A stretch of DNA of 64,000 nt from a virus (lineage: Duplodnaviria; Heunggongvirae; Uroviricota; Caudoviricetes). Made by a program: the position numbers and the translations under genes. Where the stretch lies: the IMG/VR virus record IMGVR_UViG_3300048670_001104; one strand, written 5' to 3'. The notes under the pieces were generated by a model. The model saw only the letters and a program-made list of their open reading frames with translations, searched no databases and was not told where the DNA came from. The first letter of the stretch is position 1; each line of letters starts with the position of its first letter. This document shows, piece by piece, positions 3,318 through 26,647 of the stretch.

Positions 3318-3912
3318 CTGTGGGAAACTTGGCGAATACCACGGTGTTTGTTTCGTTCTTGGGCGGTTCTGTGCCGCTCCAGCCAAGATCAATATCGCGC
3401 CATGTGGGTGTTCTATTGATCTTGACCACACGCTTGCCGCCAGTGGCCGGTTTGAAGTTGCTGTGTACCGGACCAGAATCGGTCCACCAGCCAGGATCTG
3501 CACAAGGACCCAGACTTTCTTGGGAGCTGTGCAAGTATCTCACATTGTCTCCCAACAGGCTCTGTATGGTCACATTGGTCACGATCATTCTTTCTTCCAG
3601 GATAGCATTGAGTTTGCAGTATAACGCAATACCAATGATCTGGTCAATGGGTTCCTCGGGCATTGTGGTCATCTTGATTCCAGCTGCTGCCAATGCTCGC
3701 AGTTGTTCCTGATTGGTCTGTTTGATGAACACAGTGTTGGTGAGTTCGTGATACACAAAGTGATTGAGTCGTGCCATGCAGGTCACATGATCTTCATGAT
3801 TATCAGTATTGGTGTGTATGCTCAGTTCAGCCGAGTAGTCGTTGATCTGTAGTCGATCTTCAAACCATATGGCTGCTCGCCAGTTCATGTCATATTCTAA
3901 TCTTACGTTCAT
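3307..3912 (-). CDS. hypothetical protein
   Basis: 201-aa ORF. 11-nt overlap with the downstream ORF after start trimming. No assignable motif. Confidence 0.45.
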   Translation of the reverse strand: MNVRLEYDMNWRAAIWFEDRLQINDYSAELSIHTNTDNHEDHVTCMARLNHFVYHELTNTVFIKQTNQEQLRALAAAGIKMTTMPEEPIDQIIGIALYCKLNAILEERMIVTNVTIQSLLGDNVRYLHSSQESLGPCADPGWWTDSGPVHSNFKPATGGKRVVKINRTPTWRDIDLGWSGTEPPKNETNTVVFAKFPTDEN

Positions 3913-4148
3913 GATATATCAATCTTGTCGTTGAATGAGTCGGTGTCACCAGCTTTGAGTGCAGACAGTGCCCGCATCTTCTGTTGGTATTTTCCGTTGT
4001 AGCTTTCTATAGCCATACGGATCTGATCGCAAAGATATCCATTTCCCATCCTGTGAGCAATGTTGAGTTTTTTGTGCAGTTCAGAGACCTTTGAACCCAG
4101 TTGTTCTAGGGTCATGTCCTCCAAGTTGTTGATAAACGGATGTTCCAT
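3909..4148 (-). CDS. hypothetical small protein
   Basis: 79-aa ORF. ATGA-type overlap with the 3307..3912 start. Confidence 0.45.
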   Translation of the reverse strand: MEHPFINNLEDMTLEQLGSKVSELHKKLNIAHRMGNGYLCDQIRMAIESYNGKYQQKMRALSALKAGDTDSFNDKIDIS

Positions 4149-5099: not shown

Positions 5100-7754
5100 C
5101 TACACTAAAATGTTCCTACGGGGAAATACTAGATATTTATCGAATGCGTCTGTGTTGGTATAGATATCAACAGGTGCTTCGAATCGCATGCTAGTGCTGT
5201 CAAATGTGGTTGCTTCTCCGGACCCTACCACAAAATCAAACTCTGCTCCGGTGCCAGATCCCACAATGTTGGTTCCTGTGATGTTGGTGTATGTGTCACC
5301 GTCACTGAACAACGGTGCAGTTCCCACAAGATTCAGTATGGTGATGGCACCGGTGGTTGTGTTGATATCTTGTACTGTGATGGTCACACTGTTTAGTACA
5401 TCGGTACCGCCAAGGTCGCTGCCTGCAATCAAGATACGATCACCAATTTTGTAACCAGTTCCGGCGTTTACAAACGCATCAACTTCGTAGTGCAACACCA
5501 GATCAAATGTGGTTTCTGCCGGCGCTGGCACCCAGGCACCTGATGTGGAGTCGGCAATGGGATCCCAATGTATGCTGAGTAATCTATCCAGTTCATATCT
5601 GTCAACTTCAAAGTCCACAAGATTGAGTTGTTGCCCAAATTGTGTGCGAATATTGTAGGCCACTTGGCCTGATGCGCCAGGGTGACAATATGCGATCACC
5701 CAGGCTGGTGTGAATCCCAGTACCTTGCCATCTGCTTGCTTGCTCAACATCCACAGTGGTAAGAGATTGCTTATCTGCCCCACCACGTCTATCACTTGAT
5801 CTCGCATGTTGGGCAAGCTGTTGGGATACACTGTGGTGATTTCTGTGCTGTCACCTGCATTGATGGGATACGGCAGAGTGACCTGTTTGCTCACACTGAT
5901 TCCGTCATTGTTCACAAGATCATCTTGTACGGCACTGTAGACCACTTCGTAGACCACATCACCAGTGACTGGATCCAGGGCCTGTGCTGTTTTGATTTCG
6001 CCCAGTATGAGATTTTTCCAATAATGATTTTTGATCAAACTGCTGATATACAATTCATAGGTTGAACTGGTGAGTCCAAAACAATGATTGTATATGACCG
6101 AAGTGGCTATGCCAAAGTTGGGATCTTGTGGTCTGAAGATGAGATCAGATCTAAAGATATCGGAATTCTGTATCAGTTGATTTATCAAGGCACGACTGGT
6201 GTACGGAGGCATGGCCTTGATGTAGAGATTCTCATAGGGCTCATTGTACTCTCGCAGCACTTTCACTGTGAAGGTCTTGAACACCGACACATACCCATCA
6301 ACTGAATAGGCATTCACAGTGAATGTGTATTGGGTGTCAAATGTGGTCTCTTGTGGCGACTGTATCAGTGTGGTACGCAATTCTTTGTCAAATGTGGTAG
6401 AGCCCAGGTCCACAGCAAATGTGTTAAAACTCACTCTACCGGCAATGTCGCCCGAGGGCAACAGTTGCAGACCTTGCGGTAATTTGTTGTACACCCCGGG
6501 CACATAATCGGGTGGAGGAATGGCCCCGGGTCTCAATTGATATTGCAGACTCCTGCCACCGGTGTTCACGGCCTCTACTTTTAGTAAACTGGTGGATCCA
6601 TTGATGATGCTGCCCAGATCAGCAGCAGTGAGCCAGATCACCTGTGTTTCTACCTGTCCTGTCAGCGTGATACTAAAGTAGTAAGGATCGGATTTTATCA
6701 CATCATCACTGGTGTTGATCAGATAGATGGCAAAATTGTATGTGATTTCCGAAGCACCTAAATCGGGCAAACGACCATACAACCAGCCTGTGAATGGATC
6801 AAGAGTGGTGCCCGGAGGAAGTTGCAATCCTGCACCGGGGTACTCAAGATATTCTATGATATAATCACCAAAGGTCAGTCCTTGGAATTGATATGCCCAG
6901 AAATTATCTGCTCGCACACGGCCCAGATCACTGGGTTGTGCATTGAGCAGGAATGGTAGATAATTTGGAGTCTGAGATGCATCCACAAAGGTGTCATCGG
7001 CAGTGATATCCGTGGTACTGGCTTGTAAGGTGGTTCTGCTGTACACAAAGATCTCATAGGTACGCAGGTCACTGGCCTTGCCGTCGGAGACTTCCAGTGT
7101 GAATTGATAATTGGTGTTGGGACTGTTGATCACAAAATCAAACGGATATTGATCAAACGCTATGATATTTGGTGATGTCCGGTCAAATCCACCATTGATG
7201 GTGACAGCATTTATTGGTATGATATATCCAGTGATCAGGCCCCGAGTACTGATACTCAGCCCCGGAGGAAGCTCACCGCTGATCAAGGTTATCACTGTGA
7301 CGTCAGCAGGATCTTGCTCAGAGATTTCGATCTGTATGGAATCAATGGGTGTGCCATCATAAAAAGTACCCACATTACCAGCAGGGGTCACAAACACCGG
7401 TGGGTTTTGTCCTGTAACTGTGAGATCGAATGTTCGATCTGCCAGCCGATCGATCACTACTCGTCCTTGTACTATTTTTTCTGTATAAGCACGTACCGCA
7501 AAGGTGCTGGTGACGGCTCTTGATACCGGTGCCGGGACACCTTGCACACTGGCAATGGCCTGCGGCACACCCGAAATCAATCCGGTTCGACTGCATTGTA
7601 TTCCTGGGGGCAATTGACCGGCCAACAAGGTATAATAAACTTCGTTGCCTTCAGGATCAGACGGGTCATAGGCCAACAAGGGCACCTGATAAAAAATACC
7701 TTCCGGTATGGTGCCCAGGCTACCTACAGGAGTGACCCAGACTGGTTGTGCCAT
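5100..7754 (-). CDS. large virion structural protein (baseplate / fiber-associated)
   Basis: 884 aa with repeated PPG(I/L)S/T-type segments (ELPPGLSISTRGLITG, GQLPPGIQCSRTGLISG). Its RBS is embedded in the VVGRM codons of the upstream fiber gene. Confidence 0.65.
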   Translation of the reverse strand: MAQPVWVTPVGSLGTIPEGIFYQVPLLAYDPSDPEGNEVYYTLLAGQLPPGIQCSRTGLISGVPQAIASVQGVPAPVSRAVTSTFAVRAYTEKIVQGRVVIDRLADRTFDLTVTGQNPPVFVTPAGNVGTFYDGTPIDSIQIEISEQDPADVTVITLISGELPPGLSISTRGLITGYIIPINAVTINGGFDRTSPNIIAFDQYPFDFVINSPNTNYQFTLEVSDGKASDLRTYEIFVYSRTTLQASTTDITADDTFVDASQTPNYLPFLLNAQPSDLGRVRADNFWAYQFQGLTFGDYIIEYLEYPGAGLQLPPGTTLDPFTGWLYGRLPDLGASEITYNFAIYLINTSDDVIKSDPYYFSITLTGQVETQVIWLTAADLGSIINGSTSLLKVEAVNTGGRSLQYQLRPGAIPPPDYVPGVYNKLPQGLQLLPSGDIAGRVSFNTFAVDLGSTTFDKELRTTLIQSPQETTFDTQYTFTVNAYSVDGYVSVFKTFTVKVLREYNEPYENLYIKAMPPYTSRALINQLIQNSDIFRSDLIFRPQDPNFGIATSVIYNHCFGLTSSTYELYISSLIKNHYWKNLILGEIKTAQALDPVTGDVVYEVVYSAVQDDLVNNDGISVSKQVTLPYPINAGDSTEITTVYPNSLPNMRDQVIDVVGQISNLLPLWMLSKQADGKVLGFTPAWVIAYCHPGASGQVAYNIRTQFGQQLNLVDFEVDRYELDRLLSIHWDPIADSTSGAWVPAPAETTFDLVLHYEVDAFVNAGTGYKIGDRILIAGSDLGGTDVLNSVTITVQDINTTTGAITILNLVGTAPLFSDGDTYTNITGTNIVGSGTGAEFDFVVGSGEATTFDSTSMRFEAPVDIYTNTDAFDKYLVFPRRNILV

Positions 7755-24168: not shown

Positions 24169-24594
24169 TTAGTTTGCAATCAAAGGTGGAATCCTGCTCA
24201 TCGCAGACCATATCTGACCGTTGGGAATATCGTGCTCTTGATACCCTTCGAATATCATATCTAAATATCCCCTACTGGGGCCACAATCCAGATTATCAGG
24301 TTGCATCCTATAACATTCTGCCATGATGATATTGCCTTGATATTCAACTGGCAATACTGCACGATCGTAATATGAGGGATACCCTTCTAGCATATCCAAA
24401 TCCTCTAGATGTTCTTCATCAATTAGCCATAGCACCCCGTCCACAGCTTCTCCTGCCCGTGCCACAACATCAGCATGATGGCTGAATCTAAACTCATGAT
24501 CCAACAATCGAGCGTGACCAAAAGAGATGGCACCAGGGCACCTCCAGGTCATGCTGGATCGATTGGTATTCATTCCGTAGGCAAAATAGAACAT
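24169..24594 (-). CDS. gamma-glutamyl cyclotransferase-like (AIG2/GGCT fold)
   Basis: N-terminal MFYFAYGMNTNRSSM...ARL motif matches the YFAYGSNL signature of GGCT. Confidence 0.6.
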   Translation of the reverse strand: MFYFAYGMNTNRSSMTWRCPGAISFGHARLLDHEFRFSHHADVVARAGEAVDGVLWLIDEEHLEDLDMLEGYPSYYDRAVLPVEYQGNIIMAECYRMQPDNLDCGPSRGYLDMIFEGYQEHDIPNGQIWSAMSRIPPLIAN

Positions 24595-25562
24595 TCTTCT
24601 GTAATAAGATCAGGGTTAGCGTATTTTACGATTTTGGGTGCTTTTGGAATTTTTACTTTTTTAGGTTTTTTGTGGTTTGGGATTTCGCCACGTTCTTTAA
24701 CACTTTTATCTTTACCTTCCAGAGCTAGTTTAGCGTTGAGCGCCGCTGAAAAATCTTTTATTACTTCATTGTCAATACGGTCTTGTGCAGTTGCACAATA
24801 CTCTTTGCTCATGTCAATGCCTAAATATCGCCTTCCAGTTCTTTCAGCAACAAAGGTGGTGGTGCCTGCTCCGTTGAATGGATCAAGTATTACATCGTTT
24901 TGGAAGGAGAACATCTTCAATGCTCTGTATGCTAGTTCTGTCGGAAACATAGCAGGGTGGCCATAGTCTTTCATATTGCGTTCAGGAGCAATGCTCCATT
25001 TGGCATCGGCCCAGGTCTTAAACTCATTGCCGGTGATATCGGCCAACACACTATCTCCATTGTGCTTGAGTTCACCTTTGCAAAATACTTCCAGGAACTC
25101 CCAGGTGTATTTAAAATATGGGCCACTGGGACTCTTCCAAGAGCCCCATGCACAATAAGCACAGTTCCTGTGATTTTTTTCCCAAAGTATTTCGGCCTTC
25201 CAGATAAGTCCACGATCAATGAATCCTTTTGAGATTAGATGATGACTGGGAATATACTCACTAAACAACGGCTGGGTGTTGACAATGATTCGGCCTCCGT
25301 GTTTTACTACTCGGATGCACTCGTCAAAAATTTCCCAAAGCATATTAAAATACGATGGCCAATCGGTCTCATCGTCGTGAGTGTCATATCCCATCCCAAA
25401 GTTATAAGGTGGTGATGTGAATACTAGGTCTACGCAATTGTCAGGCAGTTGTTTCAACACACTCAAGCTGTCGGCGTTAACAATTTGATTAGTATATTGA
25501 AGAGGAAAATCGTTATTTTGTTTTGAGAATTCTTTGGTATAGCTTTTGTAGCCGGCGGCCAT
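24570..25562 (-). CDS. DNA methyltransferase (N6-adenine or N4-cytosine, beta class)
   Basis: Motif IV DLVFTSPPY precedes motif I LDPFNGAGTT (FxGxG). AAGGA RBS. Confidence 0.85.
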   Translation of the reverse strand: MAAGYKSYTKEFSKQNNDFPLQYTNQIVNADSLSVLKQLPDNCVDLVFTSPPYNFGMGYDTHDDETDWPSYFNMLWEIFDECIRVVKHGGRIIVNTQPLFSEYIPSHHLISKGFIDRGLIWKAEILWEKNHRNCAYCAWGSWKSPSGPYFKYTWEFLEVFCKGELKHNGDSVLADITGNEFKTWADAKWSIAPERNMKDYGHPAMFPTELAYRALKMFSFQNDVILDPFNGAGTTTFVAERTGRRYLGIDMSKEYCATAQDRIDNEVIKDFSAALNAKLALEGKDKSVKERGEIPNHKKPKKVKIPKAPKIVKYANPDLITEECSILPTE

Positions 25563-25596
25563 GCTGTGTCCTTAAAAATGTTATTGTACAGCAATA

Positions 25597-25623
25597 CTTA
25601 TGCAGGGTCAAGCCCTGCATAAG
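25597..25623. other. perfect 11-bp inverted repeat (cttatgcaggg-tcaag-ccctgcataag) in the MTase / upstream-gene intergenic region
   Basis: Seen directly in the sequence. Candidate attenuator or operator between the candidate nuclease and the MTase. Confidence 0.6.
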
Positions 25624-25630
25624 TTGTGTA

Positions 25631-26476
25631 TTACCAATTCCAGATAATACCATTATCGTCAATTGACTCACGCAAAGTTTTACTTGAGTTCGATGCGATT
25701 ACATTATATGTTGTGAATTGCGTCGGGTGTGCAGTAGACAATTTGGCAATGAGTGTATTCTTAACTTCCTGAAATCGGGTGTATTTTAATGCTGGATACT
25801 TTTCTTTTACACGGTTAACACCACGTTCACATACCACTAAATTGATATGATCTGCGATTTCAGATCCTTTTGTTGCACCTACTGACACATTGTTATCAGT
25901 GATGAATACATGTTTTGCGTTTGGAAAACTTTGATGTAAACGAAGTCCTTGAGCGTTTACTCCATTGAAACAGGTTGAGCAAGCATGGCCACCTTTATCT
26001 TCAACTGCAATGATAGGAACTAAAACAGATTTTCTGTTAATCGTAGTTTCGATGGCTAGCCCTCCATCAACGTCTTTAAGAGGAGTGTACCCATTGGAGT
26101 ACACAGTTTCCACAATAGGCCTGTTTTGAATAACTACAACCTTACTATTTTTCCATGACGGGTTTTTTAAAAGCTCGCAGCGAACTAACTCAAAAATTGG
26201 AGCCCACTTTTGTTCTCGCCACGTAGAATACTTCTTATTCTGCCCAATGTTGATTGGATTAGACTTCTGCGGTAGTTCGTGCCATTTCTCCCACATGAAT
26301 TTATCGTACGGGGTAATACGATTGATGTATTCTTCTACATCAATGTTTCCATTAAGTAGATCTGCCATCGCTTTTTCTACGGCATCTAACATAGATACCG
26401 CCTGTTTAATGTAAGGATGATCTGTACTGGATGCCGTAAGTGTTTTACGATGATACTGAAGATTAAAATTACTCAT
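25631..26476 (-). CDS. hypothetical protein; candidate PD-(D/E)xK restriction endonuclease partner of the adjacent MTase
   Basis: 281 aa. ...LKDVDGG...PIIAVEDKGG fits a D...(D/E)xK arrangement. Immediately upstream of the MTase on the same strand. AAGGAA RBS. Confidence 0.55.
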   Translation of the reverse strand: MSNFNLQYHRKTLTASSTDHPYIKQAVSMLDAVEKAMADLLNGNIDVEEYINRITPYDKFMWEKWHELPQKSNPINIGQNKKYSTWREQKWAPIFELVRCELLKNPSWKNSKVVVIQNRPIVETVYSNGYTPLKDVDGGLAIETTINRKSVLVPIIAVEDKGGHACSTCFNGVNAQGLRLHQSFPNAKHVFITDNNVSVGATKGSEIADHINLVVCERGVNRVKEKYPALKYTRFQEVKNTLIAKLSTAHPTQFTTYNVIASNSSKTLRESIDDNGIIWNW

Positions 26477-26589
26477 TTAAATTTCCTTTTCTGTCTAATA
26501 GACGTTTGGTTAGGTTGGATGGTCCAACCATCGTGCCGCACAAGGCGGGCGTTTAAGTTATAGCAAGAACTATTTCTTACTATGCTGTT

Positions 26590-26618
26590 AGCATAGCAGA
26601 GTAGAAGTTAATTGTCAA
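26590..26618 (-). promoter_or_regulatory. sigma70-type promoter TTGACA-N17-TATGCT overlapping a palindrome TATGCTgttAGCATA
   Basis: Minus-strand reading of agcata...tgtcaa. Confidence 0.5.
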
Positions 26619-26619
26619 C

Positions 26620-26647
26620 CACTAAAATCAGCAGAATCAATCTGCTG
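26620..26647 (-). terminator. Rho-independent terminator (CAGCAGA-ttgat-TCTGCTG + AUUUUAG)
   Basis: 7-bp stem downstream of gene 26767..27117, followed by a U-rich tract on the minus strand. Confidence 0.55.

What the first reader, a model, noticed from the sequence alone, without database searches (positions are those of the whole stretch)
24570..26476. Candidate type II restriction-modification pair: beta-class DNA methyltransferase plus adjacent uncharacterised protein with a PD-(D/E)xK-like core
The MTase (DPPY-type motif IV SPPY before motif I FNGAGTT) is immediately preceded on the same strand by a 281-aa ORF with a D...(E)DK arrangement (KDVDGG...IIAVEDKGG) and no other recognisable fold. 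The two are separated by a perfect 11-bp hairpin (25597..25623). The upstream ORF has its own promoter and is preceded by a terminator (26590..26647). Phages commonly carry orphan MTases; an MTase with a cognate nuclease would be an offensive/defensive R-M system (anti-competitor phage or host-DNA degradation).
Basis: inference. Interest (0 to 1): 0.6.

Follow-up and report, generated by a model that had tools for sequence, protein, structure and literature searches.

The report
Phage restriction-modification pair, new nuclease family
A T4-like cyanophage carries a real restriction-modification gene pair whose nuclease is a previously unnamed, phage-only family, and related phages that carry the nuclease without the protecting methylase have erased its probable target (CTNAG) from their genomes.

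The parts
25631..26476 (-). 281-aa restriction endonuclease with a BbvCI-like PD-(D/E)xK fold. It belongs to a new, unnamed sequence family found only in phage-like contigs.
26066..26068 (-). Codon for D137, the proposed proximal catalytic aspartate.
   Evidence: D137 is invariant in 33 sequences and in all loci. It sits at the junction of strands 133-136 and 138-146. BbvCI has D140 and D146 at similar chain positions.
25994..26002 (-). Codons for E159-D160-K161, the proposed distal E-x-K catalytic motif.
   Evidence: E159 and K161 are invariant. They lie at the end of strand 149-160. BbvCI has E167-V-K169 and E177-C-K179.
25961..25987 (-). Residues 164-172 (HACSTCFNG), the candidate reader of the inner bases of the target site.
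   Evidence: This segment differs (HCC[SA]YQTNS) in exactly the clade that purges CTWAG but keeps CTSAG. It follows the catalytic Lys, as do the inner-base readers NgoMIV R-S-D-R and BbvCI D-K-N-K / E-R-N-M. This is an inference resting on one clade, that is, one evolutionary event.
24570..25562 (-). 330-aa beta-class DNA methyltransferase, probably N4-cytosine, with a Lys-rich C-terminal tail of about 65 aa.
   Evidence: It matches Pfam N6_N4_Mtase at 9e-38 and PADLOC MTase_II at 6.6e-60. The best full-length solved relatives are DNA cytosine-N4 MTases, 8s9n and 8s9m. It stays 71-92% identical across the family.
25404..25415 (-). MTase motif IV, SPPY.
   Evidence: That S-P-P-Y/F is typical of m4C enzymes is established knowledge of the family and was not tested here.
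24858..24878 (-). MTase motif I, FNGAGTT (AdoMet binding).
25597..25623 (.). Intergenic hairpin with an 11-13 bp stem. Its loop carries TTGAC.
   Evidence: L012 keeps it with one compensatory A-T to G-C change, and L001 keeps it with a completely different stem sequence.
25583..25611 (-). Sigma-70-type promoter-like element for the MTase (TTGACC-17-TACAAT). The -35 box lies in the hairpin loop.
   Evidence: TTGAC followed by TACAAT or TATAAT is also present in L012, L001 and L031. It is a consensus match only; function is inferred.
26590..26618 (-). Sigma-70-type promoter-like element upstream of the nuclease gene (TTGACA-17-TATGCT, with a TG extension).
   Evidence: L012 has an equivalent TTGACT-17-TATACT and L001 has TTGATT-17-TATAAT at the same relative place (read from the sequences printed).
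26629..26647 (-). Terminator-like hairpin at the end of the upstream 51-aa ORF.
   Evidence: 7-bp stem followed by ATTTTAGTGG. It is a weak match and its function is unproven.

Best explanation
The two genes form a cognate Type II restriction-modification cassette carried by a T4-like (Kyanoviridae-like) cyanophage. The 281-aa protein is a Mg-dependent PD-(D/E)xK endonuclease of the BbvCI/Bsu36I/BlpI structural type. Only one nuclease gene is present, so it most likely acts as a homodimer on a symmetric site, and the comparative data point to CTNAG. The downstream beta-class MTase, probably m4C, modifies the same site and protects the 75 CTNAG sites in this 64-kb window. Each gene has its own sigma-70-like promoter. 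The -35 box of the MTase promoter lies in the loop of a conserved hairpin placed just after the nuclease stop codon, which could separate or balance expression of the two genes. The probable role is to destroy unmodified DNA, from the host or from co-infecting phages, while the phage's own methylated DNA is spared. Shown here: the fold, the invariant catalytic triad, the conserved gene linkage, and the link between missing MTase and purged sites. Inferred: cleavage activity, CTNAG as the exact site, m4C chemistry, dimer state, biological role, and the function of the hairpin.
Against: No sequence link to any known restriction enzyme exists: no Pfam hit at E up to 10 for any of 33 members, and no PDB sequence hit. 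I had no residue-level superposition on BbvCI, so the catalytic mapping rests on the secondary-structure context and chain position. About half of the lineages lack the adjacent MTase, and two of those (L003, L024) keep normal numbers of CTNAG sites. L024 has a weak, sub-threshold N6_N4-like ORF 4.5 kb away. L003 is unexplained. The window's own moderate CTNAG depletion (observed/expected 0.30) lies within the background of the lineage (0.18-1.03), so it says nothing. Site purging could instead be driven by host restriction, with the MTase serving as anti-restriction. The contrast between loci with and without the MTase is predicted by both models. MTase specificity was not measured, and its marine homolog is partnered with an enzyme family that cuts a different site (CTAG, from memory).
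Confidence: 0.7

Rival explanations
1. The MTase is an anti-restriction enzyme that protects the phage against a host CTNAG restriction system. The neighbouring nuclease has a different job and specificity, for example a homing or mobility endonuclease or a general host-DNA degrader. The two genes travel together without being a cognate pair.
For: Host-driven avoidance predicts the same contrast between loci with and without the MTase. Orphan MTases are common in phages (general knowledge). The nuclease gene moves on its own: in L003 it is a precise 831-bp insertion relative to L054, L060 and L064. It also sits in many different gene neighbourhoods.
Against: Complete purging is tied to carrying the nuclease: 5 of 7 carriers against 0 of 40 close relatives without it. 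Host pressure alone does not predict this. The purged motif is the core of the sites cut by the closest structural relatives. The nuclease-then-MTase order is kept from 99% down to 35% nuclease identity. No cellular homolog was found from which a host system could have been captured.
Confidence: 0.12
2. The nuclease is first of all a selfish, free-standing mobile gene, analogous to the seg and mob homing endonucleases of T4. It spreads by cutting co-infecting relatives. The MTase, or purging of the sites, is simply the carrier's immunity.
For: The clean gene-sized indel in L003. Variable insertion sites next to HNH, PDDEXK_1 and Endonuclease_NS genes. A phage-only distribution. The same MjaI-like cassette sits at different positions in S-CAM3 and S-RIM32.
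Against: This overlaps with the best explanation rather than excluding it, since R-M systems are known to behave selfishly. A 5-bp target is unlike the long sites of classical homing enzymes. No target was identified near the insertion point.
Confidence: 0.12
3. The 281-aa protein keeps a nuclease fold but is catalytically dead, for example a DNA-binding regulator.
For: No direct activity data exist. L003 and L024 tolerate the gene in genomes with normal numbers of CTNAG sites.
Against: D137, E159 and K161 are invariant in all full-length homologs, including every nuclease-only one, together with about 24 other invariant positions. A harmless protein does not explain why carriers have purged their sites.
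Confidence: 0.03

Closest known systems
BbvCI / Bpu10I / Bsu36I / BlpI group of Type II restriction endonucleases (PDB 6eg7, 6maf)
   Different: Sequence identity is only 10-14%, and no HMM or profile link exists. There is one subunit gene rather than BbvCI's two. If purging reflects specificity, the site is 5 bp (CTNAG or CTWAG), not 7 bp. The partner is an N6_N4 beta-class MTase; from memory, BbvCI and Bpu10I use m5C MTases. It is found only in phage-like contigs.
MjaI-family restriction gene plus N6_N4 MTase cassette of marine T4-like cyanophages (S-CAM3, S-RIM32, S-H9-2)
   Same: The MTase is homologous (56% identity over residues 25-263). Gene order and strand are the same, nuclease then MTase. 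The host phage group is the same (Kyanoviridae). The carriers are depleted in the presumed site (CTAG at 79/441, 3/19 and 4/52 observed/expected). A nuclease-only form also exists, in S-SM2, which has 0 CTAG against 16 expected.
   Different: The nuclease is a different, unrelated family: Pfam RE_MjaI at 2.5e-45, 172 aa, hhalign probability 0.1% against the 281-aa family. The genes overlap by 4 bp and have no hairpin or promoter between them. The presumed site is CTAG, not CTNAG.
NgoMIV / SgrAI / Cfr10I / Bse634I family of Type IIP/IIF enzymes
   Different: A much weaker structural match. They recognise CCGG-core sites. There is no sequence similarity.
202-aa protein of cyanophages S-CAM1 (SXBG_00019) and S-CAM3 (gp182)
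   Same: It is the best viral structural match of the model: BFVD A0A1D8KI56, 202 aa, E 2.5e-6, probability 1.0. SXBG_00019 is the only annotated 202-aa CDS in S-CAM1. It carries D-x13-E-C-K and has no adjacent MTase. All three sequenced carriers are almost free of CTNAG: 3 observed against 744 expected, 4 against 728, and 1 against 160.
   Different: There is no significant sequence similarity (hhalign probability 2.8%). It is shorter. That the BFVD entry is this ORF is inferred from length and organism; the exact sequence maps to UniProt M4QH66.

Membership tests
PD-(D/E)xK Type II restriction endonuclease, BbvCI-like structural group | Alpha-beta-beta-beta-alpha-beta nuclease core, with a full-length structural match to a solved member | tested here: met
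PD-(D/E)xK Type II restriction endonuclease, BbvCI-like structural group | Conserved D...(D/E)-x-K catalytic residues at the ends of adjacent core strands | tested here: met
   D137, E159 and K161 are invariant. They lie at the 133-136/138-146 junction and at the end of strand 149-160. No residue-level superposition on BbvCI was available.
PD-(D/E)xK Type II restriction endonuclease, BbvCI-like structural group | Sequence membership in a curated restriction-enzyme family (a Pfam RE_* model such as the Bpu10I family) | tested here: not met
   No Pfam family at E up to 10 for any of 33 members. No PHROG, NCBIfam or PADLOC hit. No PDB sequence or profile hit.
PD-(D/E)xK Type II restriction endonuclease, BbvCI-like structural group | Two different subunits (Type IIT heterodimer, as in BbvCI and Bpu10I) | tested here: not met
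   Each cassette has only one nuclease gene. It therefore resembles the homo-multimeric relatives Bsu36I and BlpI.
PD-(D/E)xK Type II restriction endonuclease, BbvCI-like structural group | Mg-dependent cleavage at a defined sequence | not testable with these tools
   Only indirect evidence exists: CTNAG or CTWAG is purged in nuclease-only carriers.
Type II restriction-modification system | Separate nuclease and MTase genes that are adjacent, with the linkage conserved in evolution | tested here: met
   The same order and strand occur in 14 distinct loci, spanning 35-99% nuclease identity. The linkage is absent in other lineages.
Type II restriction-modification system | Nuclease and MTase share one recognition sequence, and methylation blocks cleavage | tested here: inconclusive
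   CTNAG sites are tolerated only where the MTase is present: 0 of 5 MTase-bearing lineages are purged against 5 of 7 without it. This is indirect, and host-driven avoidance predicts the same pattern.
Beta-class N4/N6 DNA methyltransferase | Pfam N6_N4_Mtase domain, with motif IV before motif I | tested here: met
   PF01555 at 9.1e-38. SPPY at residue 50 and FNGAGTT at residue 229.
Beta-class N4/N6 DNA methyltransferase | Target base: N4-cytosine versus N6-adenine | tested here: inconclusive
   SPPY and the best full-length solved relatives, annotated DNA cytosine-N4 MTase (8s9n, 8s9m; 4e-20), favour m4C. CcrM and MboIIA, which are m6A enzymes, also match.
Free-standing homing endonuclease of T4-like phages | Gene-sized presence/absence polymorphism between conserved genes | tested here: met
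   L003 positions 5986-6816 (ORF at 6001-6813) are replaced by about 5 bp in L054, L060 and L064.
Free-standing homing endonuclease of T4-like phages | Membership of a known homing-enzyme family (GIY-YIG, HNH, LAGLIDADG and others), with a long target near the insertion site | tested here: not met
   The fold is that of a Type II restriction enzyme, and no such domains were found. A target near the insertion site was not examined.

The most novel reading that the evidence does not exclude
T4-like cyanophages carry at least three unrelated or barely related Type II-like nucleases: this 281-aa family, the 202-aa S-CAM1/S-CAM3 family, and MjaI-like genes. These move as free-standing genes and are used as weapons against host or rival-phage DNA. 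The carrier is protected either by a linked MTase or, without any MTase, by having removed every copy of the target from a genome of roughly 150-200 kb. Restriction without modification, made safe by purging the genome's own sites, would be a distinct life-style for a restriction enzyme. It would also explain the extreme absence of short palindromes in some cyanophages.
Probability: 0.45. Interest if true: 0.8.

Novelty: new member of a known kind. Interest (0 to 1): 0.62.

Why it matters
It adds a structurally assignable but sequence-orphan restriction-enzyme family, absent from Pfam, PHROGs, NCBIfam and PADLOC, with a specific and testable predicted site (CTNAG). It shows that phage-borne R-M cassettes in cyanophages can swap non-homologous nucleases onto one MTase lineage. 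The wider comparison gives a clean natural experiment. Relatives that lack the MTase have removed every target site, while 40 close relatives without the nuclease have not. This suggests that phage-encoded restriction enzymes shape phage genome composition and phage-phage or phage-host conflict. Two cultured phages, S-CAM1 and S-CAM3, show the same near-total loss of CTNAG with a probable fold relative, so the idea can be tested at the bench.

Tried and rejected
- Sequence searches with the 281-aa protein found nothing: Pfam, PHROGs, NCBIfam, PADLOC, PDB phmmer and PDB profile, Pfam on all 33 members at E up to 10, and megablast and tblastn against 50,697 phage records.
- An exhaustive profile search of 1.84 billion representatives gave only 23 clusters and no bridge to a known family.
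- A scan of the GTDB species genomes found no cellular relative.
- The afdb50 fold library was unavailable.
- The BbvCI supplement holds its sequence alignment only as images, so no residue-level alignment was possible.
- After the first seven gene contexts I suspected the MTase adjacency was accidental, because only 2 of 7 had it. I dropped that view once 39 loci and a tree showed the pair on every deep branch.
- CTAG as the target is rejected. Nuclease-only loci have normal CTAG counts, for example L005 with 81 observed against 58 expected and L023 with 110 against 96.
- A 7-bp CCTNAGG or GCTNAGC target is rejected for the purging lineages, because every CTNAG is missing, not only those subsets.
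- The window's own moderate CTNAG depletion is rejected as evidence, because 80 nuclease-free relatives show the same range.
- S-CAM3 at first looked like a counter-example, purged without the nuclease. It turned out to share a probable fold relative with S-CAM1.
- A classical C-protein control element is not supported. No HTH gene lies in the cassette, and the stem sequence of the hairpin is not conserved; only its structure is.
Full report
**1. The observation**

Both ORFs are real and lie on the minus strand. The 281-aa ORF is at 25631..26476 and the 330-aa ORF at 24570..25562. The 330-aa protein is a DNA methyltransferase: it matches Pfam N6_N4_Mtase at 9.1e-38, PHROG 67 at 5.6e-54 and PADLOC MTase_II at 6.6e-60. 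SPPY lies at residues 50-53 and FNGAGTT at 229-235, which is the beta-class motif order. Its best full-length solved relatives are annotated DNA cytosine-N4 methyltransferases (8s9n and 8s9m, about 4e-20), ahead of CcrM and M.PvuII. Together with SPPY this favours m4C. That S-P-P-Y/F marks m4C enzymes is family knowledge and was not tested here.

It has no hit in Pfam, PHROGs, NCBIfam, PADLOC or the PDB sequences.

The hairpin at 25597..25623 is a perfect stem of 11 bp, or 12-13 bp with flanking pairs. It is unique in the window. The 86-nt region that holds it folds better than shuffled sequence (z = -3.25).

The range 26590..26647 contains two features. One is a promoter-like TTGACA-17-TATGCT at 26618..26590. 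The other is a weak terminator-like hairpin at 26647..26629, inside the end of the upstream 51-aa ORF.

**2. What the 281-aa protein is**

It has 71 homologs in the large protein collection, and none carries a name. An alignment of 33 of them has 27 invariant columns, including D137, E159, D160, K161, T193, D194, N195 and R218.

The AlphaFold2 model built from that alignment is very confident (pLDDT 94.4, pTM 0.91). It has the element order helix 82-102, strands 113-160, helix 167-183, strand 188-193.

In BbvCI, mutagenesis defined the catalytic sites as D140...E167-V-K169 in R1 and D146...E177-C-K179 in R2 (PMC6326814). Here D137...E159-D-K161 sits at nearly the same chain positions, at the ends of adjacent strands. 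I had no residue-level superposition, so this mapping is an inference from secondary structure and position.

Sequence methods see none of this. No Pfam model is touched by any of the 33 members at E up to 10. A profile search of PDB sequences finds nothing meaningful. An exhaustive profile search of 1.84 billion representatives returns only 23 clusters, all from the family itself. A scan of one genome from each of 185,579 bacterial and archaeal species finds no relative. No sequenced phage has one either. The family is therefore small, sharply bounded and, so far, seen only on phage-like metagenomic contigs.

**3. Is it paired with the MTase?**

The first seven gene contexts argued against a pairing. 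Only the window and P0024 had the MTase next door. The others sat beside gp59/gp32, an HNH gene and DNA ligase, PDDEXK_1 or Endonuclease_NS genes.

With 39 loci the picture reversed. The same orthologous MTase lies directly downstream on the same strand in 14 distinct loci. Their nucleases range from 99% down to 35% identity to the window's, and they occupy every deep branch of the nuclease tree. The loci without the MTase fall mostly in one derived clade at 50-70% identity. Across the paired loci the MTase stays 71-92% identical while the nuclease falls to 35-63%. A conserved MTase beside a fast-diverging nuclease is the usual pattern in R-M systems.

The window comes from a tailed phage with tail-fibre and baseplate genes, a clamp loader and sugar-metabolism genes. 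The gp32 of relative L003 is 50-60% identical to those of Synechococcus T4-like cyanophages.

The closest MTase in cultured phages (56% identity; S-CAM3, S-RIM32, S-H9-2) also follows a gene annotated as a type II restriction enzyme. That gene belongs to the MjaI family (Pfam RE_MjaI, 2.5e-45) and is unrelated to the 281-aa family (hhalign probability 0.1%). One MTase lineage is therefore partnered with two non-homologous nucleases in the same gene order.

**4. The probable target**

I scanned palindromes for depletion, comparing loci with and without the MTase. CTNAG is the most depleted motif in the nuclease-only loci (91 observed, 235 expected, z = -9.4). The per-locus results, ranked against 1120 motifs, are as follows.

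- L005, L023, L032 and L038: CTNAG ranks first, with zero copies (expected 20.8, 36.5, 19.6 and 7.9).
- L013 and L019: CTWAG has zero copies (expected 18.6 and 15.0) while CTSAG is normal.
- L007: zero CTWAG.
- L022/L026: zero CTWAG, with low statistical power.
- L003 and L024: sites are kept.
- Every long locus with the MTase keeps its sites. The window has 11 CTWAG and 64 CTSAG.

CTNAG is the shared core of the sites of BbvCI (CC|TCAGC), Bpu10I (CC|TNAGC), Bsu36I (CC|TNAGG) and BlpI (GC|TNAGC). The last two are homo-multimers.

**5. Controls**

- Eight of nine nuclease-free marine T4-like cyanophages have CTNAG at observed/expected about 1.
- Eighty IMG/VR contigs from close relatives of L003 (gp32 72-99% identical) carry neither gene, and none is purged. 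The lowest CTWAG count is 2, and CTNAG observed/expected ranges from 0.18 to 1.03.
- This also shows that the window's moderate depletion (0.30) is only lineage background.
- I removed duplicates, because L023 = L032 and L022 = L026. Purging then occurs in 5 of 7 nuclease-only lineages of at least 10 kb. That compares with 0 of 40 environmental controls (Fisher p = 1.4e-5) and 0 of 5 lineages with the MTase (p = 0.028).

The one purged control, S-CAM3, has 4 CTNAG in 198 kb, two of them in tRNA genes. It looked like a counter-example. However, the best viral structural match of the model is a 202-aa S-CAM1 protein (BFVD A0A1D8KI56, E 2.5e-6, probability 1.0). S-CAM1 has a single annotated 202-aa CDS, SXBG_00019. 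That protein carries D-x13-E-C-K and is 90.5% identical to S-CAM3 gp182.

All three sequenced carriers of this protein are nearly free of CTNAG. S-CAM1 has 3 observed against 744 expected, S-CAM3 has 4 against 728, and marine virus AG-345-P14 has 1 against 160. Where I counted it against a base-composition expectation, CTAG is normal: S-CAM1 646/744, AG-345-P14 150/160. S-CAM3 is CTAG-depleted (79/441), as expected from its MjaI-like gene.

Two caveats apply. The exact S-CAM1 sequence maps to UniProt M4QH66 rather than A0A1D8KI56, so the identity of the BFVD entry is inferred. There is also no significant sequence similarity to the 281-aa family.

A parallel exists for CTAG. All four cyanophages with an MjaI-like gene are CTAG-depleted, including S-SM2, where no MTase is adjacent. 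Five phages without the gene are not depleted.

**6. Specificity segment**

The loci that purge only CTWAG all read EDKGGH-CC[SA]YQTNS after the catalytic lysine. The loci that purge all CTNAG, and the window, read EDKGGH-ACSTCF[ND]G. In NgoMIV and BbvCI the segment just after the catalytic Lys reads the inner base pairs, and BbvCI K176/M186 decide the central base. This fits, but it rests on one clade, that is, one evolutionary event.

**7. The intergenic region**

The hairpin is kept in relatives by compensation. L012 has one A-T to G-C exchange. L001 has an entirely different stem (TTTACCGGGGT / ACCCCGGTAAA). In all three the loop carries TTGAC, and TACAAT follows at promoter spacing. In the window this is TTGACC-17-TACAAT at 25611..25583. 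L031 has TTGACT-17-TATAAT without a hairpin. In the deepest clade the two genes are 2 nt apart. The MTase therefore appears to have its own sigma-70-type promoter, with its -35 box in the hairpin loop. Whether the hairpin ends or stabilises the nuclease transcript, or modulates the promoter, is unknown.

A promoter-like element also precedes the nuclease gene in the window, L012 and L001.

**8. Mobility**

In L003 the nuclease ORF (6001-6813) is a precise insertion. Homology to L054, L060 and L064 stops at 5985 and resumes at 6817, with about 5 bp in between in those relatives. The MjaI-like cassette lies at different positions in S-CAM3 and S-RIM32. These genes behave as free-standing mobile genes.

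**9. Conclusion and limits**

This is a phage-borne Type II R-M cassette whose nuclease is a new sequence family with a BbvCI-like fold. It is probably a homodimer cutting CTNAG, and is partnered with a probable m4C MTase.

The following remain unproven: cleavage, the exact site, the methylated base, the oligomeric state and the biological role. Two nuclease-only loci keep their sites. L024 has a weak, sub-threshold N6_N4-like ORF 4.5 kb away (24.6 bits against a cut-off of 26.7). For L003 only 12.8 kb of a 154-kb contig was seen. Host-driven avoidance of CTNAG cannot be excluded as a contributor, but it does not explain why purging tracks carriage of the nuclease.

A literature search for cyanophage restriction enzymes and site avoidance found no description of this family. 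That search covers only the open-access library.

Noticed in passing
S-CAM1 NC_020837 (L134, L136-L138), S-CAM3 NC_031906 (L042-L045) and AG-345-P14 MH319765 (L135): Three sequenced marine cyanophages are almost free of CTNAG: 3 observed against 744 expected, 4 against 728, and 1 against 160. Several of the surviving sites lie inside tRNA genes. All three share a 202-aa D-x13-E-C-K protein (SXBG_00019 / gp182) with no adjacent MTase. In AG-345-P14 the only remaining site (41279) is about 90 bp from that gene.
   Followed up: partly
L040/L041/L046 (S-CAM3, S-RIM32, S-H9-2) and L053 (S-SM2, 3501-4028): Cyanophages that carry an MjaI-family restriction gene are strongly depleted in CTAG even when the MTase is present. 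S-SM2 carries the nuclease without the N6_N4 MTase, has 0 CTAG in 11.9 kb, and its downstream neighbour is a 379-aa protein with no Pfam domain.
   Followed up: partly
L001:5160-5846: In the 199-kb contig that holds P0024, a second, distantly related N6_N4 MTase (228 aa) lies directly upstream of the nuclease, so the nuclease is flanked by two MTases. GCGC is completely absent from this 12.8-kb locus (0 observed, 35.5 expected).
   Followed up: no
L024 (TGCA, GCWGC); L007 and L003 (GATC); window (AGCT, TGCA, ACGT): Other short palindromes are strongly depleted in individual phages: L024 has TGCA at 9 observed against 75 expected and GCWGC at 1 against 22.5, L007 has GATC at 6 against 44, and the window has AGCT at 79 against 175. 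This suggests further restriction pressures unrelated to this cassette.
   Followed up: no
window 24570..24770 (MTase residues about 265-330) and 24169..24594: The MTase has a Lys-rich C-terminal extension of about 65 aa that the 251-aa marine homolog lacks. Its last 25 nt overlap the start of a gamma-glutamyl cyclotransferase gene (Pfam GGACT, 1.7e-12).
   Followed up: no
L003:5986-6816 compared with L054, L060 and L064: The nuclease ORF alone is a clean gene-sized insertion between conserved genes upstream of gp59 and gp32. Yet L003 keeps 18 CTNAG sites in 12.8 kb, with no MTase in view.
   Followed up: partly
L039 compared with L036: L039 carries a nuclease nearly identical to that of L036, which has the MTase. 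However, the nuclease match ends at residue 221 and no MTase lies in the 655 bp downstream. This may be a decaying or rearranged cassette.
   Followed up: no
window 26476..26590 (5' leader of the nuclease gene): The leader of about 110 nt contains small hairpins (CTATGCT-AAC-AGCATAG; GGTTGGA-CCA-TCCAACC). The second is conserved in L012 with a loop change (GGTTGGACCGTCCAACC).
   Followed up: no
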